DNA of 52,575 nucleotides from Candidatus Aenigmarchaeota archaeon LH_S7 (GCA_023659895.1 JAGXOL010000004.1:1-52575), one strand, 5' to 3'; positions 9,001 to 19,323 are shown, counted from the stretch's first letter. Notes: a model not told the origin generated them from the sequence alone. Numbers and translations: made by a program.

Positions 9001-9980
9001 AAACAAAGAATACAATTGAAAAAATTTTAGATACTAAAGAGAAAGCACATAAGGCAGATAGAGGGATGGCTAAAATAGAGGGATTAATTCAGAAAGCAGA
9101 GAAAAGAGAAATAAAAGTTGAAAAAACAAAGAGGCTTTTAAATTTGGCAAAGGCTGCTTTTGCAAGAGGAGATTACGCAACATCTTTATCAAGAACACAG
9201 GAAGCAAGATTAACTTATGCAGCAGAAACAAAAGGAGAGTTTTCCATAAGTTATTTCATAAAAGAAAACTGGGGTAAATTAGGAATTTTAACAGCAGTCT
9301 TAATATTATTGTCTATAGGAATATTCTTTGAACTAAAATTATCTAGGATAAAACTAAAATTAAAGAATTTGAAGAAAGAAGAAACTATTTTAATAGGATT
9401 AATGAAGGAAGCCCAGAAAGAATGCTTTGAACTTAAAAAACTCTCAATGAATGAATACACAACCACAATGAATCAATATGAAAAGAAGTTGAGCAGAGTA
9501 GTTTCAAGTATAATTGAATATGAAACAAAGAAAGCAAATATATTTAGATTTGGAGGAGTAGAAAAAGCACTAAGACAGGAAAGAAATAGATTACTCAAAT
9601 TAATCTCAGAAATGCAGAAAGCCTATTTAGAGAAAGGTGAGTTAGAGACTAGAATCTATAAAGATAGATTGAAAAGTTATGCAAAGAGATTTTCAGAGAT
9701 ACAGGAGAAAATTACTACTTTAGAAGCAGAAAAAGAAATTAGGAGAAAAACAGGGATTAAAAATAAGTTTAGAAAGTTTGTGGCTGGAATTCTATCCCGG
9801 AGACCAAGGTTATGGACTGAGTTGAAAAAAAGAAAAGAACTTGAAAAACAGGGAAAGGAAAAAAAACGAGGGATTAAATTAGCAGAAAGATTCAGAAATT
9901 TTGAAGGAAAGAGAAAAGAACTGAAAGAAAAGGCAAAAAAATTAAAAAAAAGTATATTTAGAAGGTGGTTTAAAAAATGA
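3..9980 (+). CDS. Giant (>3314 aa) mosaic cell-surface glycoprotein: DUF2341-like and LamG-like domains, Ig/FN3-like repeats, C-terminal TM anchor with Lys-rich cytoplasmic tail; 5' end lies outside the window
   Basis: Frame is open from position 3 (FIEANSQETLYMYYGNP, the typical DUF2341 C-terminal motif), so the annotated Met at 36 is internal. Second DUF2341-like block WWNESFKYRKKLTI; LamG motifs GRFGKALSFDGVDDYV and FNGTIDEVRVYNRSLS; many N-x-S/T sequons; TM LGILTAVLILLSIGIFF near the C-terminus. Confidence 0.9.
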   Translation, partial: FIEANSQETLYMYYGNPSASSASNGTNTFEFFDDFEDGDYTDKWTVDNGTWTEESGVLKQTDAANTDTWHDGIKVSSPPTLGERIMRCKIKIITAADSYAAYSLKWSDSNNFLHSELRNINTDDVRGLAFIDGASETTHDFGFEILEDTWYELITKIDADGNVTFIADGETFTFSDVNWDQLWEGINLHTYETEAHFDDIYVRKYADPEPATTIGSEETSNFQITTEGTSYIRFRSKDIAGNLEETKNETIKIDTAPPEIQFVPPTTETGNYSKDWIVANVTASDSGAELDTINLTLWNSTGGLVQYNTSDISPLFINFTTLPDDTYYLNATVNDTTGKTNKTETRTILLDTTEPNMSWEYPTPENNSYKTENYTEINLTIDEPNLDSFKFNWYNGTNWTNSSFYDSNFVLGMNLNNNSDIGETSTKAVDISKYENNGTIVKPSDWWNESFKYRKKLTITNNNATNLTIGKPINFTLDTASLVSTGKLLANGDDLRIVCGGDEVNRTNTSSFNSTTEIWFKSCVQINAGEDSGDNFYAYYGNSEAGTPNTGGITTEQNYNLTVDKGGESVIRAQYVDGRFGKALSFDGVDDYVEVPDDPILDINSSYSETAWVYPSSTSGKNDITMKDSSQWAFGFQVRDGQLRAGFEDESDANFIGSGGTVNTNEWQFLTVIYNGTDVIGYINGERVLGTDGGGTPCTNGEPLTIGKGEDYFNGTIDEVRVYNRSLSPEEIQMHYQSEFSKYNSSEWRFYDNLSVENQTHKFNVWANDTLGWSSENEIIVHTNTISISNLSFEDSETKHEFNISANATHTGGVDKFTGCRIYCSNCSSGSYTGNLNKTESPARCNLLINESDMDLGKTANFNISFIDSYGKERFSNTEEHSLPNVAPEISSFSITNCSEGHCFNVFANATDLNGATDISSCTIHYYNPTDPGVGWNFFPGTLSCGSNSCNCTEQISNSTTDLGNDIENEIEVYVEFEDSSRATNTTSHYNNTIINHEPTVSAGASAISGEHAFNLTASVSDPDSDSLTCKAYLNDTSSVSSCEVNMSGPVSGDCYLKVNTSTCSNFSVNDWLDSVVEVADTWDKTNSSSVSQRIPNRVPGVPTNLNLPINDSFNDSTHVVTNHPLINWTNPADPENDTINITAAVGATQNPTAEDNSVTVPNNSMKLGYGINLIDGETYYFRIKSCDSWDCSDYLGNESNNFTMNSEPTISGAGLNQTSGLKAGTIVHLKANITDEQEDSIEWANWTLKENGIIKNSTSGTPINNLNGTKNGTIWKSPNFNITGGATYNWTLITSDSFENSTTSGSFEAENSAPTITQNPLFEDYSGHKFRANATAEDPDPDDIDSCTVLLDDGESSNTTSGILKQIDTNKYLCEYNVSLETNKNFTVLEQILVSVKFSDGKATATTSTKTHNIPNRIPTKPTNINLDVQNSSRVIDHNPTLEWTKGSDDDGDNITTYVYVDEGNCSAIDPTTEENSTSGNSTEIGATLYLTDGKTYCLRARSYDSYEYGYYSDEEEFYMNSEPAINSVMTEPEAENIDQPMEINLTANITDLDIYNFSDTIIWANFTVKSGGKIVNNTNGTSINNLNGTKDGDLWRVSFNASPSTNYEYNVTTSDGYETKTRTGSFTTGNQNPSADGPYFSDNQTRHAFIAWANATDSDGNITNCTIHFDNLTESWNFENSSVNCSKEINTSHFDVGVSISIYFVFEDNANATVTTQTLSHKIPNRVPTKPTNINLEVQNSSRVIDHNPTLKWTKGSDDENDTVKTKIYVENSSNPTTLETEVDGNSTTIGNTVQLSDGQTYYYKLCSADNWSSNCSEIYNFTMNSKPTIQSAQLNNTGTLHGGDIVHLEANITDAELDKIVFANFTVRTGKGIVNSTENVSIENLNGTKNGIWKSADFELEPGLTYNWNITTSDSFETAETSGSFTVANAQPTIGQSIKFYDLGNHTFKANASVNDADADNIESCTIYMDDGESSNTTSGILKQIDSNNYLCEYNISPETNSEFKVSDLITVKITFTDYGGASVSTSDSHQIPNQKPNITAIWITPSNPNTKTDLVGNRNASDPEEDTLSNNTFDWYLNGAKGETTVEGILPQVNTKKGENWSVCLQVVDQYNAVSDEKCSGNVTIRNYPPDLSDISVTKYAGHRILTSTIATDYDNETDFKNCTLYYFDQTNQSNKTGVLEIDYGTDLEAKCSENITAGDWIIPNHKINITIEVCDGNLTNGLSNPGNCSNITTENVVVPNVVPEISLTSPENNKNSTNKTIKFMWIGSDADSDNLTYNLTIYNRTTDLINEINTTNESYTTNLLDGIYYWNVSVTDLFDGTELNTTNSETRKLTIDTTPPELINASCNITTENRTEENATNRTINATQGDNITCRFEFRDNSQSWGIGGLNNATLNISYESKENEARNLNFSENKTEFNLTNLPAGFTVLNLTSYDWLGNNNRTKINITVTDIENPNITSISHSPTSLADLDPEVNITLSAKITDNLGVDKVLLYYRRNDSLNPTNWSSTEMNLSSGNNRNGTYEIELENWTKGNWTYYIWTNDSYRNEINSSEQNLTGLLQVWKDYTISVDISGVPEIAIINQNFTIGTVNFNNTGDFNYTCALPNSTSIKVTPTGSIGNFSFDSSSVDLEPAETKTREINATGKKLGIASIEIPVDCSCLNCTENNSDYTTTINLEPEINIIAPGPYFELTGTSKIEKVKAGDSTDLIVGIKNIGNETGINLSIFLTTPSGFSVKPARRNISSFSCESGENYKTYSYTISVSERVKTGNYLLHLNTNCSNCEYTQTFKLPKIPVENPRIEEVTEKVPTGGEAAPTPAPTGLTIEQKKKLMQTEETLEVVRKEQENFTLTVENIFDGPMEDVHVNVSGYLSQYLSLVPDSVDFIPVNESYDFTVQIIAPKYFTRGTYYLNFTINATINETTIKNNITKKKLTDLKENRLVTLIIHEISKAEAEKNLNKSKEVLEEFNKSNFYSKEIEESIKEMKEAIENKNYIKTKNTIEKILDTKEKAHKADRGMAKIEGLIQKAEKREIKVEKTKRLLNLAKAAFARGDYATSLSRTQEARLTYAAETKGEFSISYFIKENWGKLGILTAVLILLSIGIFFELKLSRIKLKLKNLKKEETILIGLMKEAQKECFELKKLSMNEYTTTMNQYEKKLSRVVSSIIEYETKKANIFRFGGVEKALRQERNRLLKLISEMQKAYLEKGELETRIYKDRLKSYAKRFSEIQEKITTLEAEKEIRRKTGIKNKFRKFVAGILSRRPRLWTELKKRKELEKQGKEKKRGIKLAERFRNFEGKRKELKEKAKKLKKSIFRRWFKK
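4059..5968 (+). repeat. Intragenic identical 50-bp repeat pair (4059-4108 and 5919-5968)
   Basis: gatgatggagagagttcaaatacaacttcaggaattttaaaacagataga occurs twice; offset 1860 bp (2 x 930). Confidence 0.9.
4251..5287 (+). repeat. Intragenic near-identical 107-bp repeat pair (4251-4357 and 5181-5287) in FN3-like modules
   Basis: Both copies encode NR(I/V)PTKPTNINL(D/E)VQNSSRVIDHNPTL(E/K)WTKGSDD; offset 930 bp. Confidence 0.9.
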
Positions 9981-11077
9981 TGAGAAAAATTTTTTGTTTA
10001 TTGTTAATTTCTGCTTTGCTAGTAATCCCTGTTTTTGGTTTATCTGATGAAGCAATAGGGACCAATAACAGTTTAAGTAAGGCAGAATTTAAAATTAAGG
10101 AGATGAAAGAAGCAAATTTATCCACGGAAAGGGTTTCTGATGTTTATCTCAAGGCAAAACAGTTGTATGATGCACAGGTTGCTTTAGAGAAAGCTGGAGG
10201 AAAACCTGATTATTCTCTTGCAAAAAAGAAGATAAAAAAAATAGAAGATTTAAAAGAAAAAGGTTTTCTTTTAGCAGATGAATTAAAAGCATTAAAGTTG
10301 AGAATAAAAGAAAGTGATGTTAATACAACTAAAGCTGAGATTATTTACTCTGAGGCTCTTAAAGAATTTGAAGATGAGAGATATGAAAAGGCAAAGAAGT
10401 TAATAGAGAAAACTTATACAAAATTATCTGAGTTAGAATCCACTGCAGCAAGAATAGGAGCTTTTTATGAAGCAGTATCAAAAACCTTTGAGAATTTCAT
10501 CAGAGAAAATTTTAAGAAAATAATTTCTGTTATTCTTATAATCTCAGTAACCCTTATAGTCTTACGTAACAGAATAAAAATTTACAGATTAAAAAAGAAA
10601 TTAAGATTGTTAGAATTAAGAAAAGAGATTCTAAAAAAATTAATTAAAAAAACTCAGAGTGATTATTTTGAAAAAGGGATAATTGGAGAAGACACTTACA
10701 CATTAAGAATAGATAAGTTCGGAGAACTTATAAGAGATATTAACAGACAAATTCCTCTAGTTAAGGCTAATATTGCTAAGGTGAAAAAACCTGAAAAGAG
10801 GAGAGAAGAAAAAAAAGAAAATCTGATTAAGAGAGGGATTCAGAAAATAGGTGAAAAAAAGAAAAAACAATCAGAGAGACAGCGAATAAAAGAGAGAGGA
10901 AAGAAAACAAAAGAGAAAGTAGAGAAATTGAAGGATAGAGATTTAGAGAAAATAGCTGAAGATCTTTTAGAAATCCAGAAGAAAATAAAGAAGCCAAGGA
11001 ATCCTGTAAAAAGAATTTTCTATAAAATAGATGTTTATCGAAGAAGAAAAAGATTAAAAAGAAAATTAAAGAGCTAA
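9977..11077 (+). CDS. Membrane protein with signal peptide, helical/coiled-coil ectodomain, single TM and basic tail; paralogous to the C-terminal anchor region of the giant protein
   Basis: ATGA overlap with the upstream stop; N-terminal signal peptide; TM IISVILIISVTLIVL; shares the L..L.K..Q..YFE.G.I...Y motif with the giant protein tail. Confidence 0.8.
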   Translation: MMRKIFCLLLISALLVIPVFGLSDEAIGTNNSLSKAEFKIKEMKEANLSTERVSDVYLKAKQLYDAQVALEKAGGKPDYSLAKKKIKKIEDLKEKGFLLADELKALKLRIKESDVNTTKAEIIYSEALKEFEDERYEKAKKLIEKTYTKLSELESTAARIGAFYEAVSKTFENFIRENFKKIISVILIISVTLIVLRNRIKIYRLKKKLRLLELRKEILKKLIKKTQSDYFEKGIIGEDTYTLRIDKFGELIRDINRQIPLVKANIAKVKKPEKRREEKKENLIKRGIQKIGEKKKKQSERQRIKERGKKTKEKVEKLKDRDLEKIAEDLLEIQKKIKKPRNPVKRIFYKIDVYRRRKRLKRKLKS

Positions 11078-11087
11078 TATTTAAAAG

Positions 11088-11870
11088 CTATGTAAGTGAG
11101 AATGTGGTCTTTAATTTTTCACCAAGTATTGAGTTAGGATATACAACAATACCTTTGTTTTCAACAATTTTCATTTCAACAATTTTTCTTTTAATATTTA
11201 TTCCTCTCATCTTTAAAACTTCTATGGCAGAACTTCTTTTCCCATATCTCTCTATAATACTATAAAGACCAATAATTCCATCTGCAAGGAAACTTATAAC
11301 CTCACCTTTTTCTGAATAAGTCATTCCGAGATGTGTTGGATGAGCAACTTCTCTGATTAAAAAACTTGTAATATTGCTTCTCTCTAAATACCTGAAAAAT
11401 TGCTCCATATAAATTCTAAACCTGCTCTCTTTTCCACTAAAAGCTGCTGCTATTGATGACAGACTATCTACAATAATGATATCAGGACTAAAATCTTTTG
11501 GCATCAAAATAGGGTGTATATCAATTAATAATTCTCTTTTAGCCTCAGAAAGCATGGCTTCAACAGATCTTGAAATATCTATTGCTCTGAATCTTTTTAA
11601 TCTTAGTAATCCTTGTTTTTCAAATTTTTCTGGATTCCAGTTAAATCCCTGCATATGTTCTTTTAATTTTTTTTCTGGCTCCTCAAAACTCATATACAGA
11701 ACTTTCTTCCCATTCAAGCAGGCATTGTTGGCAAGTTGCAAACAGAAAATTGTTTTGCCAGAACCAGGTCCTCCTTCAACTAGCACACTTGAACCGATTG
11801 GAATTCCTTTTCCAAGTAATTTATCAAATCCTTTTATTCCAGATTTGAAAAATTTTTCTTTAGTATCCAT
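11088..11870 (-). CDS. KaiC/RAD55-like (RecA superfamily) single-domain ATPase
   Basis: FFKSGIKGFDKLLGKGIP, Walker A GGPGSGKT, SFEE, Walker B IIVDS, ADGII, EVLKMRG. Confidence 0.9.
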   Translation of the reverse strand: MDTKEKFFKSGIKGFDKLLGKGIPIGSSVLVEGGPGSGKTIFCLQLANNACLNGKKVLYMSFEEPEKKLKEHMQGFNWNPEKFEKQGLLRLKRFRAIDISRSVEAMLSEAKRELLIDIHPILMPKDFSPDIIIVDSLSSIAAAFSGKESRFRIYMEQFFRYLERSNITSFLIREVAHPTHLGMTYSEKGEVISFLADGIIGLYSIIERYGKRSSAIEVLKMRGINIKRKIVEMKIVENKGIVVYPNSILGEKLKTTFSLT

Positions 11871-12183
11871 AATTATATTTATATAATATATAAGTGGCTA
11901 CATCCCATATTCAACTAAATGACCAGAGATAAATAAAGAAGTTACTCAAATCTTAATCCCCTTTCTTCTTAGAAACATTAATCCTCTCAATATCAAAACA
12001 TTTTAAAACAGAAAAATCAGTATAAAAAATACTCTACTAAAACTAACAAATATTTCTACAATCAGTTTAGATAAACCCAAAGGAATAGATGCAGGTATTT
12101 TCCTAATTCTATGTAGAGCACCTACTGCAATTTCTAATTTATCAAATCCCTCTAAAACCTTTCTCAAACTGCGGAGAATCCTG

Positions 12184-12294
12184 GTCTTATCACCAACTCC
12201 TCAATGTTTCTATCTACCTTTGTTTTTATCTTTGGGTTTAATCTCTTTATCAACTTGCCCATAAAATCGCTTAAATTTTATTTTGGGATGCAGC
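12184..12294 (+). repeat. Direct repeat, left copy (flanks defence island)
   Basis: First 32 bp identical to 18859-18890, then a 16-bp insert, then 63 bp with 6 mismatches to 18891-18953. Confidence 0.9.
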
Positions 12295-12461
12295 CGTTTT
12301 ATGGAGTAGAGCTAGTCCTTAAGAAGTTAGGAATAGATTTCAATTAATATTTTAATTTATCAGTTTATTTATGGCTCAGAAGAAAATTACTGAAATAAAT
12401 TTAGAGTTTGAGATTTTTGTTGATGAAGGATTAAAAAAGAATGGTAGCGGGAGAGAATAAA

Positions 12462-13166
12462 ATGGAGAAAAAGAAAGATCAAATAAAAAAATCATTTACT
12501 CTCCATGATTTGCCAAGATCTGAAAGACCACGAGAGCGGTTAGTTCAGTTTGGCGAGCAGGCACTTTCAGCTCAGGAATTGCTCCAGTTGATTTTGGGGC
12601 GCGGTGTAGCTGGTGAATCTGTTATGATAACATCCCAAAAATTACTTTCTCATTTTGGTAGTCTTCAGAAATTAGCCGAAGCTAGCCTTGAAGAATTATA
12701 CTCAATTAAAAGAATTGGACTGGCTAAAGCAGCGCAAATAAAGGCTGTTTTTGAAATTGCCCGCAGACTCGCCACTCAAGACACCCCTTACAAAAGCAAA
12801 GAATTGAATCATCCAGAAGATATTTATAAACACATCAAAAGCAAATTAAAGGATTATAGCAAAGAACATTTTTATTTGATTGCTCTAAATTCTCGTAATT
12901 ATTCAATCAATGAAGTTTCTATCGGCACTCTTAATGCTAACCTTATCCATCCTCGCGAAGTTTTTGCTGAAGCTATCAAAATCAGAGCTGCTCAAATTAT
13001 TATCGCCCACAATCATCCTTCAGGTAACCCTGAACCATCAGAAGATGATTTAGAAATTACAAAGCAGCTAGTAGAAGCCAGTAAAATTTTAGGTATAGAG
13101 ATATCTGACCATATTATTGTTGCTAAAGACAGTTTCTTTAGTTTCAAAGATAAAGGGTTGATCTAA
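12462..13166 (+). CDS. radC: RadC/UPF0758 family JAB-domain protein
   Basis: LPRSERPRERL...ALSAQELLQLIL N-terminus, HhH region, JAMM motif E...HNHPSGNPEPSEDD. Start at 12462 preferred; in-frame ATG also at 12441. Confidence 0.92.
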   Translation: MEKKKDQIKKSFTLHDLPRSERPRERLVQFGEQALSAQELLQLILGRGVAGESVMITSQKLLSHFGSLQKLAEASLEELYSIKRIGLAKAAQIKAVFEIARRLATQDTPYKSKELNHPEDIYKHIKSKLKDYSKEHFYLIALNSRNYSINEVSIGTLNANLIHPREVFAEAIKIRAAQIIIAHNHPSGNPEPSEDDLEITKQLVEASKILGIEISDHIIVAKDSFFSFKDKGLI

Positions 13167-13170
13167 AATT

Positions 13171-14862
13171 ATGACAAAAAACAATAAACAATCAGAAATA
13201 GAAAAATTAAAAACTGAGATTGATCGATTGAAAAAAGAATTGAAGAAAAAGAAAAAATATGGTTTAGTCTGGGAAGACAAATCTGAAGATGTGGTAGAGA
13301 TGTGCAAAGAGAAATTGCCGATAGTAAAGGAAGTAAAGAGTAGGGAAATAATCACTAACAAAAATAAACCAGTTAATTTATTGATTGAAGGAGATAATTA
13401 TCATGCGCTCTCAGTTTTAAATTATACTCACGCCAAAAAAGTTGATGTTATTTATATTGATCCTCCCTATAATACCGGTAATAAAGATTTTATTTTCAAT
13501 GATAAATATATTGACCCCGAAGATGGCTACCGACATTCGAAATGGCTTTCTTTTATAGAGAAAAGATTAAAGTTGGCGAGGAATTTATTAAAAAATACAG
13601 GAGTAATTTTTATTTCAATCAATGATAATGAAGTGGCACAGTTGAAAGCATTGATGGATGAAGTGTTTCAAGGTAATTTTATTGCAAATATTATATGGAG
13701 AAAAAGAGCAGGGGGTGGCAATGATAGTAGATATATTGCTGTAGACCATGAATACATTTTAGTCTATAGCAAAACAAAAAATCCTAAATTTTATACTTTA
13801 CCCCTAATAACAAAACAGCTTAAAAGTTACAAACATCAAGATGAAAAAATTAGCACACACGGTCCTTATATGCTAAAGCCATTACACGAACCCACTCTTC
13901 AAGATAGTAAAGGATTGCATTACGATATAAAGTGTCCCGACGGAACAATATTAAAAGGTAACGAACATCAATGGAAATGTAACCGAGAAACTTTTTTGAA
14001 GAGATTAAAGGATAATAGAATAATTTTTAAACGAGATAGAAGGGGTCAATGGAAGGTTTACTACAAGATACATTTAAACGAAAAAGAGGGAGAGTTAATA
14101 TTTGATGAGAATGGAAATATCGCTCAAAGAGAAAGATTGCCACTGTCTATTCTATATGACCTAGTCTTAAATAGTGAGGGTGGAAGAGAGATTAAAGAAA
14201 TCTTCAACATAAAAACTCCAAAAGAAGTTTTTTCTAATCCTAAACCTGTAGATTTAATAAAACATCTTTTAAATTTCTCAACAAACAAGCATTCAGTCAT
14301 TTTAGATTTTATGGCTGGTACTGGCACTACTGGACAAGCAGCTTTAGAACTCAATAAAGAAGACGGCGGTAATCGTCAATTTATTCTTTGCACTAATAAT
14401 GAGAATAATATCTGTACTAATGTTTGTTATCCGAGAATTAAGAAAGTTATTGAGGGATATAAAAACTTAAAAGACGAAAAAGTTGAGGGCTTGGGTGGCA
14501 ACCTAAAATATTTCAAAACCGATTTTGTTGATTCCGAGCCAACAGATAAAAATAAAAAGAAATTGACCGAACAAGCAACAGAGATGCTTTGTATAAAAGA
14601 AGAAACTTTTGAGCCAGTAACTAACAATGAAAGATTTAAGATTTTCAAAAATTCTAACCATTACACCGGCATTATTTGGGAACAGTTAGCTATTCCAGAA
14701 TTTAAAAAAGCAATAAAAAACATTAAGGGTAAATTTAGTGTCTATGTTTTTTCCTTGGGTGATGAAACTTTTGATGAAGAATTTGCTGATGTTAAACAAA
14801 AAATTAAACTTTCTCCTATACCAGAAGCAATTTTAAGAGTGTATAGGAGAAGTTTTAGGTAA
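13171..14862 (+). CDS. mod: Type III R-M DNA methyltransferase (Mod, beta-class amino-MTase)
   Basis: KYGLVW and LLIEGDN N-terminal motifs, motif IV IYIDPPYNTG, NPKP, motif I ILDFMAGTGTTG; order IV-TRD-I. Confidence 0.92.
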   Translation: MTKNNKQSEIEKLKTEIDRLKKELKKKKKYGLVWEDKSEDVVEMCKEKLPIVKEVKSREIITNKNKPVNLLIEGDNYHALSVLNYTHAKKVDVIYIDPPYNTGNKDFIFNDKYIDPEDGYRHSKWLSFIEKRLKLARNLLKNTGVIFISINDNEVAQLKALMDEVFQGNFIANIIWRKRAGGGNDSRYIAVDHEYILVYSKTKNPKFYTLPLITKQLKSYKHQDEKISTHGPYMLKPLHEPTLQDSKGLHYDIKCPDGTILKGNEHQWKCNRETFLKRLKDNRIIFKRDRRGQWKVYYKIHLNEKEGELIFDENGNIAQRERLPLSILYDLVLNSEGGREIKEIFNIKTPKEVFSNPKPVDLIKHLLNFSTNKHSVILDFMAGTGTTGQAALELNKEDGGNRQFILCTNNENNICTNVCYPRIKKVIEGYKNLKDEKVEGLGGNLKYFKTDFVDSEPTDKNKKKLTEQATEMLCIKEETFEPVTNNERFKIFKNSNHYTGIIWEQLAIPEFKKAIKNIKGKFSVYVFSLGDETFDEEFADVKQKIKLSPIPEAILRVYRRSFR

Positions 14863-14864
14863 TT

Positions 14865-15713
14865 ATGACAATTCCAGAATCACAATTAGAAACATGGGCG
14901 CATCAGGGTGCAATTACAACTGCTAAGGCTACCCATGAATCTATAAGAAATGCTTTAGATTCTTATGAATGGCCTGATGGTGTAAATTTTAAAGTTTATC
15001 TCCAAGGCTCATATAAAAACAATACTAATATTCGTGGCGATAGCGATGTAGATGTTGTAGCTCAACTTAACTCAACTTTTTGTAGCAATTTATCCAAAGA
15101 CCAAAAAAGAATTTTGGGCTTAACTTCTGCCACTTATCACTTATCCGATTTTAGGGTAGATGTTTTAAAAATTCTAAAAGATTATTACGGCCAGAGCCAA
15201 ATAACCGAAGGCAACAAATCAATTAAGATAAAAGCGAATAATGGAAGATTGCCTGCTGATGTAATTGTTTGTGCTCAGTACAGACGATATAAAACTGTAA
15301 ATATCAATGGTTATGTTGAGGGAATGTGTTTCTGGACCAAAAACGACGATAGACAAATAATAAATTATCCAAAAGTTCACTATGACAATGGAGTTTCAAA
15401 ACATCAAGACAGCAATAAATGGTATAAACCAGTAGTGAGGTTATTAAAAAACAGCCGAGGAAATATTCCCGGAGATGCAACGCCATCATATTTTTTGGAG
15501 TGTATGCTTTATAATGTGCCTAATTCTAAATTCGGAACAAGTTATCACAATACCTTTTGCAATGTTGTGAATTGGCTTAATGAAAATAGTTTAGATAATT
15601 TTGTTTGCCAAAATGGGCAATTGGAACTTTTTGGTCTGACGCAAGATCAGTGGGACACAAATCAAGCAAAGATATTTATTAAAAATCTTATTTCACTTTG
15701 GAATAACTGGTAA
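14865..15713 (+). CDS. cdnE: CD-NTase (cGAS/DncV-like nucleotidyltransferase), CdnE clade
   Basis: MTIPESQLETWAHQGA, LQGSY, RGDSDVDVV (DxD), ADVIVC, INYPKVH, YKPVVRLLKN, PSYFLECMLYNVP; closely resembles Rhodothermus marinus CdnE as recalled from memory. Confidence 0.93.
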   Translation: MTIPESQLETWAHQGAITTAKATHESIRNALDSYEWPDGVNFKVYLQGSYKNNTNIRGDSDVDVVAQLNSTFCSNLSKDQKRILGLTSATYHLSDFRVDVLKILKDYYGQSQITEGNKSIKIKANNGRLPADVIVCAQYRRYKTVNINGYVEGMCFWTKNDDRQIINYPKVHYDNGVSKHQDSNKWYKPVVRLLKNSRGNIPGDATPSYFLECMLYNVPNSKFGTSYHNTFCNVVNWLNENSLDNFVCQNGQLELFGLTQDQWDTNQAKIFIKNLISLWNNW

Positions 15714-15714
15714 T

Positions 15715-16299
15715 ATGCATCCATATTCAATAGATACAGAGGAAAGAAAAAATATTTTATTGTCCTTGGCAATAATTGGCGTTGCTTTTTCTTGGAGTTT
15801 TTACAAAATACTCGGCAACTATCAAATCTCTTTGCCGTGGTGGGTTGAAAGTCCCTCTATATTGTTTTTCTATGGGGTACTTTTTATTGTTTTTGATAAA
15901 TGGGCTTGGAAAATTTTTGGAAGAATCGGTTTTGTAAAAACTCCTAACTTAAACGGGGAATGGAACGGGGATTTAAAAACTTCTTTTGATGAGCATTCAT
16001 CGGAAGTAAAAGCAACTTTAAAGATTTTTCAAGATTGGACAAAAATAAAAATCATTTTAATCACCAAGGGATCATCGTCTTATAATGAAACCGCGTCTTT
16101 TGTTATAGAAGCGCCAGAAGGAATACATTTAAGCTATCAATATATTAATGAACCAAAATCAAGTGCCACAAAAACGATGAGAATTCATAGGGGAACCGCG
16201 CGACTACTTTTTAATGAAAAAGAAAATACGCTTGTTGGGGAATACTATTCAGGCAGGGATAGACAAAATTTTGGAAGTTTAAATTTTAAAAGAGATTAA
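15715..16299 (+). CDS. cap15: CBASS effector Cap15 (2TM + SMODS-associated beta-barrel)
   Basis: MHPYSID start, two TM helices, FDKWAWK, PNLNGEWNG, IFQDW, YQYINEP, HRGT, LVGEYYSGRDRQNFG; immediately downstream of the CD-NTase. Confidence 0.9.
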   Translation: MHPYSIDTEERKNILLSLAIIGVAFSWSFYKILGNYQISLPWWVESPSILFFYGVLFIVFDKWAWKIFGRIGFVKTPNLNGEWNGDLKTSFDEHSSEVKATLKIFQDWTKIKIILITKGSSSYNETASFVIEAPEGIHLSYQYINEPKSSATKTMRIHRGTARLLFNEKENTLVGEYYSGRDRQNFGSLNFKRD

Positions 16300-16301
16300 T
16301 T

Positions 16302-18533
16302 ATGCCACTAAAAATTTATCAAGAAGATGCAACAGATGAGTTATTAGATAAAGCTAAACGGCTTTTAGGTCGTTCTGGTGAAAAGAAACTTGTTTTCAAA
16401 GCGCCTACTGGTTCGGGTAAAACGATAATGATGGCAGAGTTTTTAAAACAATTAGTTGAAGATCGAGAATTAAGGCAACCTCTTTCTTTTATTTGGACCG
16501 CACCACGCCCAGTTTTAACTAAGCAAAGCAAAAAGAAATTAGAAAATTATTTTGAAGAAAGCAGAGCCTTAAAATGTTCTTTTTTTGAAGATTTGGATGA
16601 CAGAAAAATTGGTGAAAATGAAATTTTATTTTTCAATTGGGAGAGCATCAATAAAAAGGACAATATTTATATTCGTGATAATGAGCAAGATTTCAATTTG
16701 TCAAAGGTGTTAGAGAAGACAAAAGAAGAAGGGCGAGAAATAGTTTTGGTAATTGATGAAGCGCATCATCATGCTACAAGTGAAATTTCTCAAGGGCTGA
16801 TTGCAATGATTGGACCAAAATTAACATTAGAAGTTTCTGCAACACCTGTTTTACAAGGTGACGAAATGGCAAATGTGGATTTAGAAGATGTTAAAACCGA
16901 GGGAATGATTAAAAAAGCAGTGGTTCTTAATGAAAAATTTGTCAATCTTTTAAAGAAAGGGAAAATTGAATCAGATTTAAGTGGTGGAAGTGAGGGATTG
17001 GTTATTAAAGCGGCATTGCAGAAAAGAGAAGAATTATTAAAGGCGTTCCAAAAGGAAAAAACAAACATAAATCCTCTTGTTTTGATTCAGCTCCCAGATA
17101 GAATCGGCCAGCTTGAAGACACGATGAAAGATAGAGTAATTAGAATTCTGAAAGATAAATATAAGGTTTCAACTGAAAATGGAAAGTTAGCTATTTGGCT
17201 TTCTGGAGAGCATGTTAATAAAGAAGAGGTAGAAAATAGTGATAGTGAAGTAGAGATATTGATTTTTAAGCAGGCAATTGCTTTGGGTTGGGATTGTCCA
17301 CGAGCACAGATTTTAGTTTTATTTAGAGAGTGGCATAGTCCTATTTTTTCAATCCAAACCGTTGGCAGAATTATGAGGATGCCTGAACCAATTAAGGGGC
17401 ACTATGATAATGAAGTTTTAAACTATGGTTATGTTTATACTAATTTAGAAGGTATTGAAATTAAAGAAGATATCGCCCGCGATTATATTACTATTCATCC
17501 AAGCAAAAGACGAGACGATTATAGCCCTATCAATTTATTGTCTTGTTATTCAAAACGCCAGCGTGAGAAGACAAGATTATCACCATTTTTTATAGAATTA
17601 TTTTTGAAAGAAGCAAAAGATTATGGATTAAAAAAGAAAATAGATACGAAAGCAAAGAAATTAGATATAAAAGTATTCAGTGATTGGAAAGCCGAAAATA
17701 TCGATGTATTAGCTGGGAAAATGATTGCAGGCGATAAAGAAATTAAAGTAAGTGCCTTTGATTCACAACGATTATTTGATTTTTTTACAAGAAAGAGTTT
17801 AAGAGAAGGTGAAGTTTTTCTATATCCAGAAGATAGATCCGCTGGTCGGATCAAAGAAGCAATTTATAAATTTTTTGAAACAGCGTTTAAAATGAGGCGT
17901 GGAGAACAAGAAGACGAAGTTGTCCAGATTGTTTTGAGTGAAAAAAACATACAACATTTTGTCAATATAATTGATAAAAGTAAAGTAGAATATCAGAAGG
18001 AAATAGCAAAGCGAGAGCCAGAACTTGTCTTTGAGGATAACTGGAATATACCAGAATCATTAACCTTCGGAGAGGATTATATAGAAGAAGACAGAAAAAG
18101 ATCTATCATGCAACCGTTTTGTAGTGGTAGTCGTTGGAGCACAGAAAAAGCTTTCATAGAATTTCTAGATAACTCAAAAAATATAGAATGGTGGTTTAAG
18201 AATGGAGATCGTGATAAGACTTTCTTTGCTGTACCATACGAAGAAAGTGGATTAAAAAAACCTTTTTATGTTGATTTTATTGTTAAATTAAAAAATGGTA
18301 AAATTGGGTTATTTGATGTTAAATCTGGGATAACTTTAAAAGTTGCACGGTCAAAGATAGATGGATTATATAATTATGTTCTGGAACAAAACAAAAAAGG
18401 AAAAAATCTTTTTGGTGGAATAACTACAAATACCGACCAAAGAAATTACCGTGGAAGATGGATTTATTTTAATCAGATAAGTAAAAACTTAAAAGAAAAT
18501 GATTTTAGCAATTGGCAAACTTTAGAATTATAG
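16302..18533 (+). CDS. res: Type III restriction enzyme Res subunit (SF2 helicase-like ATPase + PD-(D/E)xK nuclease)
   Basis: Walker A APTGSGKT, DEAHH, SAT, LGWDCPRA, QTVGRIMR; C-terminal FYVDFIV...LFDVKSG. Confidence 0.92.
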   Translation: MPLKIYQEDATDELLDKAKRLLGRSGEKKLVFKAPTGSGKTIMMAEFLKQLVEDRELRQPLSFIWTAPRPVLTKQSKKKLENYFEESRALKCSFFEDLDDRKIGENEILFFNWESINKKDNIYIRDNEQDFNLSKVLEKTKEEGREIVLVIDEAHHHATSEISQGLIAMIGPKLTLEVSATPVLQGDEMANVDLEDVKTEGMIKKAVVLNEKFVNLLKKGKIESDLSGGSEGLVIKAALQKREELLKAFQKEKTNINPLVLIQLPDRIGQLEDTMKDRVIRILKDKYKVSTENGKLAIWLSGEHVNKEEVENSDSEVEILIFKQAIALGWDCPRAQILVLFREWHSPIFSIQTVGRIMRMPEPIKGHYDNEVLNYGYVYTNLEGIEIKEDIARDYITIHPSKRRDDYSPINLLSCYSKRQREKTRLSPFFIELFLKEAKDYGLKKKIDTKAKKLDIKVFSDWKAENIDVLAGKMIAGDKEIKVSAFDSQRLFDFFTRKSLREGEVFLYPEDRSAGRIKEAIYKFFETAFKMRRGEQEDEVVQIVLSEKNIQHFVNIIDKSKVEYQKEIAKREPELVFEDNWNIPESLTFGEDYIEEDRKRSIMQPFCSGSRWSTEKAFIEFLDNSKNIEWWFKNGDRDKTFFAVPYEESGLKKPFYVDFIVKLKNGKIGLFDVKSGITLKVARSKIDGLYNYVLEQNKKGKNLFGGITTNTDQRNYRGRWIYFNQISKNLKENDFSNWQTLEL

Positions 18534-18858
18534 TGATATTACTTTCGTCATTTGATAACAAGTATATAGGCTTAACTAATTGAAAGAAATATACCCTTTC
18601 GTTCTTTTTCTTCCTCTTTTCTGAATTCACACTCAGGAATATTCCCAACAATCTCTTTTGTCATATTTTTTTAAGTCTAATAAAGTAAAACAATATTAAG
18701 TAAAGATTTTAAGATACTTTCCACATAATATATATTTATATTAAAAATATATAATTTTTTTATCTTAACCTCAAACTGTTTTTTATACTCTTTCATATAT
18801 GCACCTTGTTTGCTATTTTTCCAAGGAGGTGGAAGTTCTAAAACAACGTTTGCTATTA

Positions 18859-18953
18859 GTCTTATCACCAACTCCTCAATGTTTCTATCTTTGGGTTTAA
18901 TCTCTTTATCAGCTTGCCCCTAAAATCACTTAAATTTTATTTCGGGATATAGC
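18859..18953 (+). repeat. Direct repeat, right copy (flanks defence island)
   Basis: gtcttatcaccaactcctcaatgtttctatct + ttgggtttaatctctttatc...gggatatagc; matches 12184-12294. Confidence 0.9.
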
Positions 18954-18990
18954 TTATTGATAAATATTTAAATAGTTTTAGAATATATTT

Positions 18991-19323
18991 ATGGTAGTAA
19001 ATGTTAAAGCTTTCTCAGAAGTTGTAGGAAAAGATGTATTTACTTTAGATGGAAAATATTGTGGAAAAGTTAAGGATTTCAAAGCAGACTTGAGGAAATT
19101 CAAAGTAACATCCTTGATAATTGAGGCTTTTAAGGGAACTTTCCTTTCAGAGGTCTTAGGAGGAGAGAAGAAAGGAGTTATAGTACCATTTTCCGCTGTG
19201 GAAGCAGTTGATGATATTGTTTTAGTGAGGAATATTTTTAAAGGGGTTTCCGAGGAATCCAGTTCAGAGTCTTCAGGTGTCTCTGAACAATCCAAGCAAC
19301 AACAATCCTCTTACAAAAAATAA
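18991..19323 (+). CDS. PRC-barrel domain protein
   Basis: FSEVVGKDVFTLDGKYCGKVKD...VPFSAVEAVDDIVLV pattern. Confidence 0.88.
   Translation: MVVNVKAFSEVVGKDVFTLDGKYCGKVKDFKADLRKFKVTSLIIEAFKGTFLSEVLGGEKKGVIVPFSAVEAVDDIVLVRNIFKGVSEESSSESSGVSEQSKQQQSSYKK

What the first reader, a model, noticed from the sequence alone, without database searches (positions are those of the whole stretch)
12462..18533. Complete CBASS (CdnE + Cap15) nested inside a type III R-M operon in an archaeon
Seen: gene order radC-mod-cdnE-cap15-res on one strand with gaps of only 4, 2, 1 and 2 bp, so the CBASS pair sits between mod and res and is almost certainly co-transcribed with them. All catalytic motifs look intact. 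Established: mod and res are normally adjacent; CdnE+Cap15 is a type I CBASS that kills or arrests cells by membrane damage; anti-phage effectors embedded in R-M operons have precedent (PrrC in a type I R-M). Inference: this is a layered module in which R-M is the first line and CBASS the back-up, possibly a guard sensing Mod/Res inhibition. I do not know of this architecture being described.
Basis: partly seen in the sequence, partly recalled or inferred. Interest (0 to 1): 0.92.

Follow-up and report, generated by a model that had tools for sequence, protein, structure and literature searches.

The report
CBASS cargo inside restriction-modification operon
A tiny-genome archaeon carries a horizontally acquired restriction-modification operon with a two-gene suicide-signalling antiviral system (CBASS) wedged between its methylase and nuclease genes; that gap is a swappable cargo slot in this operon family, so this is a new example of a known habit, not a new machine.

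Summary
radC, mod, cdnE, cap15 and res lie on one strand with gaps of 4, 2, 1 and 2 nt, all catalytic motifs are intact, and the host is an archaeon with a genome of about 0.74 Mb.

In 66 related Mod/Res operons the mod|res junction is empty in 35. In the other 31 it holds about 20 unrelated, mostly defence-type cargoes (Old, Ppl-like, PD-Lambda-3, Schlafen and others), never CBASS. The closest Res (87% identical) has an empty slot.

CBASS-bearing operons are scattered over the Res tree, and the closest CdnE (85%) sits beside a type II R-M. Cargo and backbone therefore have separate histories. My best reading is two independent defence layers that share transcription and transfer. This extends the published "embedded defence genes" pattern to a type III-like R-M family.

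One result goes beyond that. In the CdnE-Cap15 subclade at least 62% identical to this one, 18 of 23 loci adjoin DNA-modification systems of at least 8 unrelated kinds. In sister clades the figure is at most 8 of 54 (p about 1e-7). A generic functional or regulatory link to restriction remains possible (about 20%). A specific Mod/Res guard is unlikely.

The parts
12161..12294 (.). Left copy of a 130-150 nt dispersed repeat that brackets the island
   Evidence: the repeat finder families D1 and D2. There are four copies in the genome.
12441..13166 (+). radC (UPF0758 HhH N-domain plus RadC-like JAB domain). It is the first gene of the RadC-Mod-Res backbone.
   Evidence: PF04002 140 bits, PF20582 81 bits, NF000642 239 bits. 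It is 87% identical to the RadC of the empty-slot operon L168. RadC precedes Mod in 16 of 25 related loci that have at least 2 kb of upstream sequence.
13171..14862 (+). mod: type III-class beta N6/N4 DNA methyltransferase (DPPY motif, DFMAGTG motif)
   Evidence: PADLOC MTase_III PDLC03642 350 bits; PF01555 145 bits. It is only 55% identical to the L168 Mod although RadC and Res are 87% identical; one possible reason, not tested here, is a different recognition domain.
14865..15713 (+). cdnE: minimal clade-E CD-NTase (cargo gene 1)
   Evidence: PADLOC cyclase PDLC00788 373 bits over the full length. 349 bits to RmCdnE, PDB 6E0K, with the GS/DxD/D active site aligned. 4321 homologues at E<=1e-10.
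15715..16299 (+). cap15: two-TM, beta-barrel cyclic-dinucleotide receptor/effector (cargo gene 2)
   Evidence: PF18153 121 bits and PF23471 34 bits. PADLOC 2TM effector PDLC00703 261 bits. 59 bits to Cap15, PDB 7N34.
16302..18533 (+). res: SF2 (DEAH) helicase with a C-terminal PD-(D/E)xK-like nuclease motif; a type III-like restriction subunit
   Evidence: PF04851 87.5 bits; PADLOC REase_III 57 bits, partial. Helicase motifs and D658/D672/K674 are conserved. There is no sequence match in the PDB. The model gives only generic SF2 fold hits. More than 7980 homologues, about 740 aa in the 120 best listed.
18836..18953 (.). Right copy of the dispersed repeat that brackets the island
   Evidence: the repeat finder D1 (91%) and D2 (80%); alignment of the four copies.

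Best explanation
The locus is a horizontally acquired defence cassette of about 6.1 kb (about 6.8 kb with its flanking repeats) in a DPANN-type archaeon.

Its backbone belongs to a very widespread, highly conserved type III-like restriction-modification family with the layout RadC - Mod - [slot] - Res. In this family the mod|res junction is a cargo slot. About half of the family members have it empty. The rest hold one or two co-oriented, tightly packed genes of many unrelated, mostly defence-type families.

Here the slot holds a complete type I CBASS: a clade-E CD-NTase plus Cap15. The five genes are most probably transcribed together and translationally coupled.

Inferred mechanism: Mod methylates host DNA, and Res translocates on and cuts unmethylated incoming DNA as the first line of defence. 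Independently, CdnE senses infection. For the studied CdnE03-Cap15 system the trigger is a structured phage RNA; the trigger here is unknown. CdnE then makes a cyclic dinucleotide, probably cUMP-AMP-like given about 60% identity to RmCdnE. Cap15 binds it through its beta-barrel and disrupts the membrane, aborting the infection.

The nesting gives shared expression and joint horizontal transfer. It does not make a Mod/Res-CdnE protein machine.

Shown here: the gene identities, motif integrity, slot variability, the mosaic history of cargo and backbone, and the patchy distribution in relatives. Inferred: co-transcription, activity in the archaeal host, the nucleotide product, the trigger, and the functional independence of the two layers.
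For: - Gene identities and motifs.
- Slot variability: 80 metagenome loci were found with Res as query. Of the 66 that show both Mod and Res, 35 are empty and 31 are filled. There are about 20 unrelated cargo clusters, including Old (PDLC02358, 194 bits, 5 loci), Ppl-like/SMC_N proteins of 894-1036 aa (3 loci), PD-Lambda-3_B/Hypoth_Ymh, Schlafen AlbA_2, TPR and Bro-N; most are unknown.
- Nearest Res relatives: 87% identity has an empty slot; 81% carries Schlafen plus a 240-aa protein; 80% carries a 919-aa SMC-like protein.
- On the Res tree, CBASS-bearing operons fall in at least five separate places. The window is sister to the empty L168 (SH-aLRT 98).
- Mosaic history: RadC and Res are 87% identical to L168, yet the closest CdnE (85%) is in a type II R-M context (L002).
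- The same cargo also occurs outside type III operons.
- Acquisition: among 60 relatives only two have a Mod-Res pair (47-49% identity, no cargo), and one has decayed fragments. The island is bracketed by a dispersed repeat.
- Published precedent for embedding: 10.1101/2024.01.29.577857. CdnE03-Cap15 sensing phage RNA: PMC10686824 (abstract listed).
Against: - Independence of the two layers is inferred, not shown.
- The CdnE-Cap15 subclade that includes this locus adjoins DNA-modification systems far more often than sister clades do: 18/23 against at most 8/54, Fisher p=1.6e-7. The partners are of at least 8 unrelated kinds. Pure hitch-hiking does not obviously predict this.
- The pair has entered this Res family's slot repeatedly.
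- No transcript or read data could be examined.
- It is untested whether bacterial-type Cap15 works in an archaeal membrane.
- The Res nuclease domain is supported only by a conserved motif and a low-confidence model.
Confidence: 0.72

Rival explanations
1. Restriction-coupled CBASS. In this reading the CdnE-Cap15 subclade is a specialised partner of DNA-modification-based defences. CdnE, or its expression, would respond to a generic consequence of restriction or of its failure. Candidates are DNA ends or fragments, unmethylated DNA, DNA-damage/LexA-type de-repression, or anti-restriction DNA mimics. CBASS would then fire as a back-up when R-M is engaged or overwhelmed.
For: - 18 of 23 loci whose CdnE is at least 62% identical to this one adjoin R-M or other modification systems. 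These are: the type III-like slot (7); the 3' end of a canonical-length type III Res (L184); type II systems with TdeIII (3), HNH, AccI, MamI or EcoRV; LexA-methyltransferase fusions (L005, L007, L179, L185); Dcm plus LexA (L008); and Hma-like DUF1156/DUF499 (L181). Sources.
- Sister clades: at most 8 of 54; p=1.6e-7.
- In the CdnE tree the R-M-linked loci form one clade (support 93/93) with the type III-slot members basal.
- Repeated independent nesting in the Res family.
- Precedent for a dsDNA-activated CD-NTase with Cap15: DancE, 10.64898/2026.10.06.757031.
- Precedent for a guard embedded in an R-M operon: PrrC in EcoprrI, as discussed.
Against: - The partner R-M proteins are not homologous to one another, so a specific protein-protein guard is implausible.
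- CdnE is 81-85% identical between type II and type III contexts, so there is no partner-specific adaptation.
- 5 of 23 subclade members have no modification system nearby (L009, L012, L180, L183, L186).
- None of 69 Res-sampled operons carries CBASS, so the backbone does not need it.
- The counts are not phylogenetically corrected, and the sample is small.
- DancE has an AGS-C domain, which this 282-aa enzyme probably lacks (its length leaves no room for one; the 164-position Pfam SMODS model matches residues 17-125).
- Co-selection for joint transfer and expression explains the association without any mechanistic coupling.
Confidence: 0.2
2. Assembly artefact. In this reading the island, or the CBASS pair inside it, was joined to the archaeal contig wrongly, for instance through the dispersed repeats at both ends. 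The archaeon would then not really carry this operon.
For: - The island is bracketed by a repeat that also lies at or near contig ends elsewhere in the assembly.
- All five genes have their closest relatives in bacteria or unclassified assemblies.
- Reads could not be inspected.
Against: - The internal junctions mod|cdnE and cap15|res occur with the same spacing and near-identical sequence in independent assemblies (L003, L013, L182).
- The island lies in the middle of a contig of at least 52.6 kb (the window; 56.6 kb by the contig length listed), with archaeal genes on both sides.
- Its G+C content equals that of the flanks: 32.7% against 33.6%.
- The two flanking repeat copies differ (91% and 80% identity, one indel), so they are not collapsed copies.
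- A relative in the same family holds decayed fragments of a 73-81% identical Res.
Confidence: 0.03
3. Recently transferred but non-functional passenger. In this reading the cassette is intact only because it arrived recently from bacteria. It would not be expressed, or Cap15 would not work in the archaeal membrane, so there is no layered defence in this host.
For: - Very high identity to bacterial homologues (85-87%) and a patchy distribution in relatives.
- A same-family relative shows a decayed copy of the backbone, so such cassettes do decay in this lineage.
Against: - All five ORFs are full length with intact motifs and the same lengths as their closest relatives (Mod 563 aa and Res 743 aa, as in L168).
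- The G+C content is indistinguishable from the host's.
- CBASS is reported at over 3% prevalence in archaea (PMC12988326).
Confidence: 0.05

Closest known systems
Type I CBASS with a clade-E CD-NTase and Cap15 (RmCdnE, PDB 6E0K/6E0L; Cap15, PDB 7N34/7N35; S. schleiferi CdnE03-Cap15, PMC10686824)
   Same: It is a two-gene cyclase-plus-effector unit with no Cap2/Cap3 or HORMA/TRIP13 genes. The GS/DxD/D active site is intact, and the enzyme is about 60% identical to RmCdnE (349 bits). The effector has the Cap15 two-TM plus beta-barrel architecture.
   Different: It has no promoter region or regulator of its own. It sits 2 nt after mod and 2 nt before res, inside another defence operon, and the host is an archaeon. 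Its trigger and nucleotide product are untested.
Genetically embedded defence systems ('guilt-by-embedding', Payne, Hughes, Fineran and Jackson, bioRxiv 10.1101/2024.01.29.577857). The classic case is PrrC inside the type Ic EcoprrI hsd operon.
   Same: The cargo is co-oriented between genes of a DNA-modification-based defence system. The host system is also found without cargo, and the cargo is also found elsewhere. Many alternative cargoes occupy the same position, several of them known defences (Old, Ppl-like, PD-Lambda-3).
   Different: The host system here is a type III-like RadC-Mod-Res family. It is not among the four host systems that paper analysed (Hma, BREX, DISARM, type I R-M), and CBASS is not mentioned in its main text. 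Unlike PrrC, no functional dependence on the host R-M is known.
Type III restriction-modification (EcoP15I/EcoP1I: Mod plus Res)
   Same: The Mod is a beta-class methyltransferase that scores 350 bits on PADLOC MTase_III. The Res has an N-terminal SF2 DEAH helicase and a C-terminal D...D-x-K motif. The order is mod then res in one operon, and the two are adjacent in empty-slot relatives.
   Different: Res is about 740 aa, against about 970 aa for EcoP15I Res (length from my own knowledge). It has no sequence match to any PDB chain and only a weak, partial REase_III hit (57 bits). A RadC-like JAB gene usually precedes mod (16 of 25 loci). The family has cargo slots at mod|res and at radC|mod.

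Membership tests
Type I CBASS (CD-NTase plus effector only) | A CD-NTase with an intact [G-S]...[D-x-D]...[D] nucleotidyltransferase active site | tested here: met
   G48-S49, D61/D63 and D132 are invariant in 25 homologues and align with RmCdnE. PADLOC cyclase model matched full length, 373 bits.
Type I CBASS (CD-NTase plus effector only) | An adjacent effector gene with a cyclic-nucleotide receptor domain | tested here: met
   Cap15_CD_rec 121 bits plus Cap15_TM. The gene starts 1 nt after cdnE.
Type I CBASS (CD-NTase plus effector only) | No Cap2/Cap3 (type II), HORMA/TRIP13 (type III) or other signature accessory genes | tested here: met
   The only other genes in the operon are RadC, Mod and Res. 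The RadC JAB domain matches the housekeeping-type RadC equivalog, not Cap3.
Type I CBASS (CD-NTase plus effector only) | Cyclic oligonucleotide synthesis on infection, and effector-dependent abortive infection | not testable with these tools
   This needs expression, phage challenge and LC-MS.
CD-NTase clade E | Closest similarity to characterised CdnE enzymes | tested here: met
   The best PDB hits are RmCdnE (349 bits), EfCdnE, a cyclic dipyrimidine nucleotide synthase (7x4f, 124 bits) and ClCdnE.
Type III restriction-modification | A Mod subunit: beta-class N6-adenine methyltransferase with DPPY and AdoMet motifs | tested here: met
   PADLOC MTase_III 350 bits over residues 15-473; PF01555 145 bits. 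DPPY and DFMAGTG are visible in the translation.
Type III restriction-modification | A Res subunit: SF2 helicase ATPase plus a C-terminal PD-(D/E)xK endonuclease | tested here: inconclusive
   The helicase part is clear (PF04851 87 bits; motifs I, II, III and VI; Foldseek gives SF2 helicases including LlaGI). The nuclease part rests on the conserved D658/D672/K674 and an alpha-beta-beta-beta-alpha-beta segment in a model with pLDDT 53. REase_III scores only 57 bits, and there is no PDB sequence match.
Type III restriction-modification | mod and res adjacent in one operon | tested here: not met
   In this locus they are separated by 1439 nt that hold cdnE and cap15. In 35 of 66 relatives they are adjacent.
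Type III restriction-modification | ATP-dependent cleavage that requires two inversely oriented unmethylated sites | not testable with these tools
   This is a biochemical property.
Embedded defence system (guilt-by-embedding / PrrC type) | The cargo lies between genes of a known defence system, in the same orientation | tested here: met
   The same arrangement occurs in L003, L010, L011, L013 and L182.
Embedded defence system (guilt-by-embedding / PrrC type) | The host system exists without the cargo, and the cargo exists outside the host system | tested here: met
   Empty slots in 35 of 66 relatives and in the nearest relative L168. CdnE-Cap15 also lies beside type II R-M systems or alone.
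Embedded defence system (guilt-by-embedding / PrrC type) | The cargo is held in check by, or triggered through, the host R-M. This is the PrrC-type guard, which defines PrrC-like cases only. | not tested
   There are no functional data. The comparative evidence argues against a partner-specific interaction.

The most novel reading that the evidence does not exclude
The CdnE-Cap15 subclade to which this locus belongs may be a 'restriction-coupled CBASS'. On this reading it is a promoter-less abortive-infection unit that has specialised in living inside or beside DNA-modification defences: the type III-like slot, at least six kinds of type II R-M, LexA-methyltransferase fusions, and Hma-like systems. 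Its cyclase or its expression would be triggered by a generic product of restriction or of restriction failure (DNA ends, DNA damage/LexA cleavage, anti-restriction mimics). That would be a general second-line alarm wired to first-line restriction across bacteria and DPANN archaea.
Probability: 0.2. Interest if true: 0.75.

Novelty: new variant of a known kind. Interest (0 to 1): 0.45.

Why it matters
Each part is ordinary: a type I CBASS and a type III-like R-M. Nesting defence genes inside modification-based defence operons is also a published pattern.

Three things are worth keeping:
- The RadC-Mod-[slot]-Res family is huge (thousands of homologues, the 120 best-scoring at 70-87% identity) and acts as a carrier of swappable cargo. 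Its unknown cargoes are therefore ready-made candidates for new anti-phage genes.
- A specific CdnE-Cap15 subclade is found next to restriction systems of many unrelated kinds far more often than its sister clades. This gives a concrete, cheap experiment on whether CBASS activation or expression can be tied to restriction.
- It documents very recent inter-domain spread of a two-layer defence cassette into a DPANN-type archaeon. That group is reported to be poor in R-M and CRISPR (PMC12988326).

Tried and rejected
- AlphaFold2 of Res with a 20-sequence alignment gave pLDDT 53. Foldseek then returned only generic SF2 helicases at low TM-score. This confirms the helicase fold and nothing about the nuclease domain.
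- The sigma-70 promoter and terminator scan of 11800-19100 was no better than shuffles, and the model does not suit an archaeal host.
- Search for a syntenic empty site in relatives: G009, G007 and G004 keep the coiled-coil and KaiC-like pair, but the right-flank genes are not nearby. No clean pre-insertion site was found.
- Viral-contig scans: no CdnE at 62% identity or above, and only two Res homologues at 58-62%. There is no evidence that phages carry the cassette.
- Burroughs et al. 2015 (SMODS networks) could not be fetched. I could not check whether it mentions SMODS/R-M linkage.
- The lactococcal plasmidome paper (PMC11381338) has CBASS but no embedding in R-M.
- I considered DancE-type dsDNA activation as a direct model. 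I kept it only as a precedent, because DancE carries an AGS-C domain that this short (282-aa) enzyme probably lacks.
- I considered Panoptes-type inverse signalling. I rejected it as a primary model because that system uses mCpol, not a CD-NTase (abstracts listed).
- The NCBIfam hit 'DS2_2_antiphage' (310 bits, below the 350 cut-off) was not traced to a publication.
Full report
OBSERVATION. All are on the + strand, with gaps of 4, 2, 1 and 2 nt. Profile searches identify them as follows:
- A full-length RadC/UPF0758 protein (NF000642, 239 bits).
- A type III-class Mod methyltransferase (PADLOC MTase_III 350 bits; PF01555 145 bits).
- A CD-NTase (PADLOC cyclase PDLC00788, 373 bits, end to end).
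- Cap15 (PF18153 121 bits plus the Cap15 TM helices).
- An SF2 helicase of the ResIII family (87.5 bits), with only a weak, partial hit to PADLOC REase_III (57 bits).

The cyclase is about 60% identical to Rhodothermus marinus CdnE (PDB 6E0K, 349 bits), and the GS/DxD/D active site aligns. Cap15 matches PDB 7N34. Res has no sequence relative in the PDB. Its helicase motifs and a C-terminal D658...D672-x-K674 motif are invariant or nearly so among 20 homologues.

The host is archaeal: SecY matches the archaeal-type model above its cut-off, and there are weaker matches to archaeal-type GlmM, a family B polymerase and S26e. The assembly is 0.74 Mb and 85% complete, which is a DPANN-type genome.

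IS THE ARCHITECTURE RECURRENT? A scan of one genome per species with a CdnE alignment returned 80 loci. phmmer with the five window proteins found the same Mod-CdnE-Cap15-Res order in four assemblies: a Nitrospirota MAG (L003, with a RadC fragment), a Planctomycetota MAG (L010), a Lentimicrobium MAG (L011) and an unclassified bacterium (L013, with the complete RadC-Mod-CdnE-Cap15-Res). A Cloacimonadota contig begins inside cdnE and continues Cap15-Res (L080). An Elusimicrobiota MAG adds a further case (L182). The junction sequences are nearly the same: TAATTATG at both cargo borders in the window and in L013, and almost the same in L003. The arrangement is therefore real and recurrent, not a one-off and not an artefact of this contig.

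WHAT THE BACKBONE IS. The Res protein belongs to a very large and conserved family: more than 7980 homologues, with the best 120 at 70-87% identity and about 740 aa. I fetched 80 metagenome loci with Res as query and located RadC, Mod and Res in them.
- Of the 66 loci that show both Mod and Res, 35 have the two genes abutting (gap of 41 nt or less). The other 31 carry 387-3115 nt of extra sequence at the mod|res junction; in 29 of these a single gene (127-1036 aa) on the same strand is tightly packed between them, one holds several small ORFs and one has no ORF of 60 aa or more.
- None of these cargoes is CdnE or Cap15.
- The cargoes fall into about 20 unrelated clusters. Those that can be named are defence-type: an Old-family ATPase-TOPRIM nuclease (PADLOC Old 194 bits, five loci), PHP/SMC-like ATPases of about 900-1000 aa with a Ppl hit (three loci), PD-Lambda-3_B/Hypoth_Ymh, Schlafen AlbA_2, TPR and Bro-N. 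Most have no match.
- RadC precedes Mod in 16 of 25 loci with enough upstream sequence. A second, less often filled slot lies between RadC and Mod (DUF3800 in L169).

The three closest relatives of the window's Res settle the point. The 87%-identical one is RadC-Mod-Res with an empty slot. The 81% one carries Schlafen plus a 240-aa protein. The 80% one carries a 919-aa SMC-like protein.

On a Res tree the six CBASS-bearing operons fall in at least five separate places, each next to operons with empty slots or other cargo. The window is sister to the empty L168 (SH-aLRT 98). Component identities are mosaic: RadC and Res are 87% identical to L168 but Mod only 55%, while the nearest CdnE (85%) lies in a type II R-M context. 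Cargo and backbone thus have different histories.

ACQUISITION. Among 60 relatives in the same family or class, only two have a Mod-Res pair (47-49% identity, adjacent, no cargo). One same-family genome has decayed fragments of a 73-81% identical Res with in-frame stops. The island is bracketed by direct copies of a 130-150 nt repeat, at 12161-12294 and 18836-18953. Two further copies exist in the assembly, one at a contig end next to a fragment that looks transposase-like by eye (not profile-tested). Relatives keep the left-flank gene pair but not the right flank, so no clean empty site could be shown. The island's G+C content (32.7%) equals that of the flanks (33.6%). I read this as a horizontally acquired cassette, shared very recently with bacteria from similar habitats.

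AN ADDED RESULT: THE CARGO'S OWN PREFERENCES. Looking from the CdnE side, the loci closest to the window that are not in a type III-like slot are still next to restriction-modification genes:
- L002: N6/N4 methyltransferase plus HNH nuclease.
- L004, L006, L045: TdeIII nuclease plus methyltransferase.
- L005: AccI nuclease plus a LexA-methyltransferase fusion.
- L007: MamI nuclease plus a LexA-methyltransferase fusion.
- L008: a C5-type DNA methyltransferase (assigned by eye, not profile-tested) plus a LexA-like gene.

- A LexA-methyltransferase fusion (L179).
- EcoRV nuclease plus a LexA-Dam fusion (L185).
- A canonical-length ResIII protein directly upstream (L184).
- An Hma-like DUF1156/DUF499 pair (L181).
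- One more type III-like slot (L182).
- Three loci without any modification gene (L180, L183, L186).

Altogether, 18 of 23 loci whose CdnE is at least 62% identical to the window's adjoin a DNA-modification system, and the partners are of at least eight unrelated kinds. In the 54 loci of the sister clades (60% identity or less) I found a methyltransferase within 5 kb in at most 8. A Pfam tally of 131 immediate neighbours there shows only about three each of N6_Mtase, Eco57I, Methylase_S and ResIII. Fisher's exact test gives p=1.6e-7. This figure is not corrected for phylogeny.

In the CdnE tree the R-M-linked loci form one clade (93/93), with the type III-slot members basal and the type II-linked ones nested within.

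It also constrains that idea. The partner enzymes are not homologous to one another, and CdnE is 81-85% identical across contexts. Any coupling must therefore run through something generic, such as DNA ends, DNA damage or LexA-type control, anti-restriction mimics, or simply shared expression and transfer. It cannot be a specific Mod/Res-CdnE contact.

MECHANISM I COMMIT TO (confidence 0.72). There are two independent layers in one transcription and transfer unit. Mod/Res restricts unmethylated DNA. CdnE senses infection by its own route; for CdnE03-Cap15 that route is a structured phage RNA (PMC10686824, abstract). CdnE makes a cyclic dinucleotide, probably cUMP-AMP-like by homology to RmCdnE. 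From my own knowledge, the uracil-selecting Asn is N166 in RmCdnE; the aligned Asn, in the motif NYPK, is conserved here. Cap15 binds the nucleotide and permeabilises the membrane. The gene identities, motif integrity, slot variability and mosaic history are shown here. Co-transcription, activity in the archaeal host, the product, the trigger and the independence of the layers are inferred.

COMPARISON WITH WHAT IS KNOWN. The CBASS pair passes every testable membership criterion for type I CBASS and for CD-NTase clade E. The backbone is type III-like: Mod passes, but Res is only partly supported as a type III Res. The nested layout is a case of genetically embedded defence systems (bioRxiv 10.1101/2024.01.29.577857; the PrrC/EcoprrI paradigm). 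That paper analysed Hma, BREX, DISARM and type I R-M, and its main text mentions neither type III R-M nor CBASS. My other literature searches found no description of CBASS nested in a type III operon. CBASS in archaea is known, at over 3% prevalence (PMC12988326). Earlier notes of this scan on other genomes describe the same RadC-Mod-[slot]-Res carrier and the same CBASS cargo. I treated them as leads and re-derived the slot result here from independent searches.

VERDICT. The finding is a new variant of a known kind: embedding extended to a type III-like family, with CBASS as recurrent cargo, in an archaeon. Interest is moderate (0.45). The most novel reading still open is a restriction-coupled CBASS subclade (probability about 0.2).

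LIMITS. No read or transcript data were available. The Res model was poor. The samples are small and not phylogenetically corrected. Burroughs et al. 2015 could not be consulted.

Noticed in passing
window 12161-12294 and 18836-18953; G000:C17:5371-5476 (L177); G000:C16:1088-1156 (L178): A 130-150 nt dispersed repeat family has four copies in the assembly. Two direct copies (91% and 80% identical segments, one 16-nt indel) bracket the defence island. One other copy lies at a contig end beside a fragment that looks transposase-like by eye (L177 4964-5290, - strand). It could be a MITE or IS end, or a recombination site for island gain and loss.
   Followed up: partly
L005:1155-3431(-), L007:1459-3018(-), L179:3456-4907(-), L185:3206-4915(-): Genes fusing a LexA DNA-binding domain and an S24 peptidase domain to a DNA methyltransferase (Eco57I-like, N6_N4 or Dam type) lie divergently just upstream of CdnE-Cap15, next to type II nucleases (AccI, MamI, EcoRV). 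This suggests SOS-type, self-cleaving control of both the R-M system and the CBASS pair. In sister-clade loci, 7 of 131 neighbouring proteins are S24 peptidases.
   Followed up: partly
L088:5477-6325, L091:3772-4617, L105:3224-4075; L094:8352-8993, L097:2850-3491; L106:1877-2800, L123:2650-3570; L100:4257-4916, L149:2636-3304: Recurrent cargo families occupy the mod|res slot: 281-283 aa, 213 aa and 306-307 aa with no Pfam or PADLOC match, and 219-222 aa with only a weak PDC-M14B hit (29 bits). They are candidate new anti-phage genes by the embedding argument.
   Followed up: partly
L169:1566-2324; gaps of 426-1227 nt between RadC and Mod in L086, L088, L091, L100, L101, L121, L160: A second cargo slot exists between radC and mod in the same operon family. 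It is filled in seven of the 27 loci with RadC (an eighth, L141, has a 295-nt gap). In a further locus fetched separately, L169, it holds DUF3800.
   Followed up: partly
window 14860-14867 and 16297-16304; L013 and L003 junctions: Both borders of the CBASS cargo read TAATTATG (stop codon, TT, start codon). The same octamer is found at both borders in L013, and nearly the same in L003. The empty-slot relative L168 has TGAAAAAATG instead. This is either a translational-coupling signal or a recombination microhomology.
   Followed up: no
G012:C48:19527-20525 (L165): A genome of the same archaeal family holds fragments of a Res gene 73-81% identical to the window's, broken by in-frame TAA stops. 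This shows earlier acquisition and decay of the same backbone in this lineage.
   Followed up: partly
window 3-9980 and 9977-11077: A giant ORF of at least 3325 aa runs off the 5' end of the window. It is followed, with a 4-nt overlap, by a 366-aa lysine-rich coiled-coil protein with a signal or TM segment. By eye these look like the very large surface proteins common in DPANN genomes.
   Followed up: no
window 14865-15713: The NCBIfam model NF053871 'DS2_2_antiphage, anti-phage nucleotidyltransferase' matches CdnE end to end at 310 bits, below its 350-bit cut-off. I did not trace the source study of that 'DS2' system.
   Followed up: no
L009:8373-11279: One of the few subclade members without R-M lies beside genes that look, by eye only, like a serine recombinase and phage-type genes. 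Its Cap15 is truncated to 141 aa. It may be a decaying copy on a mobile element.
   Followed up: no
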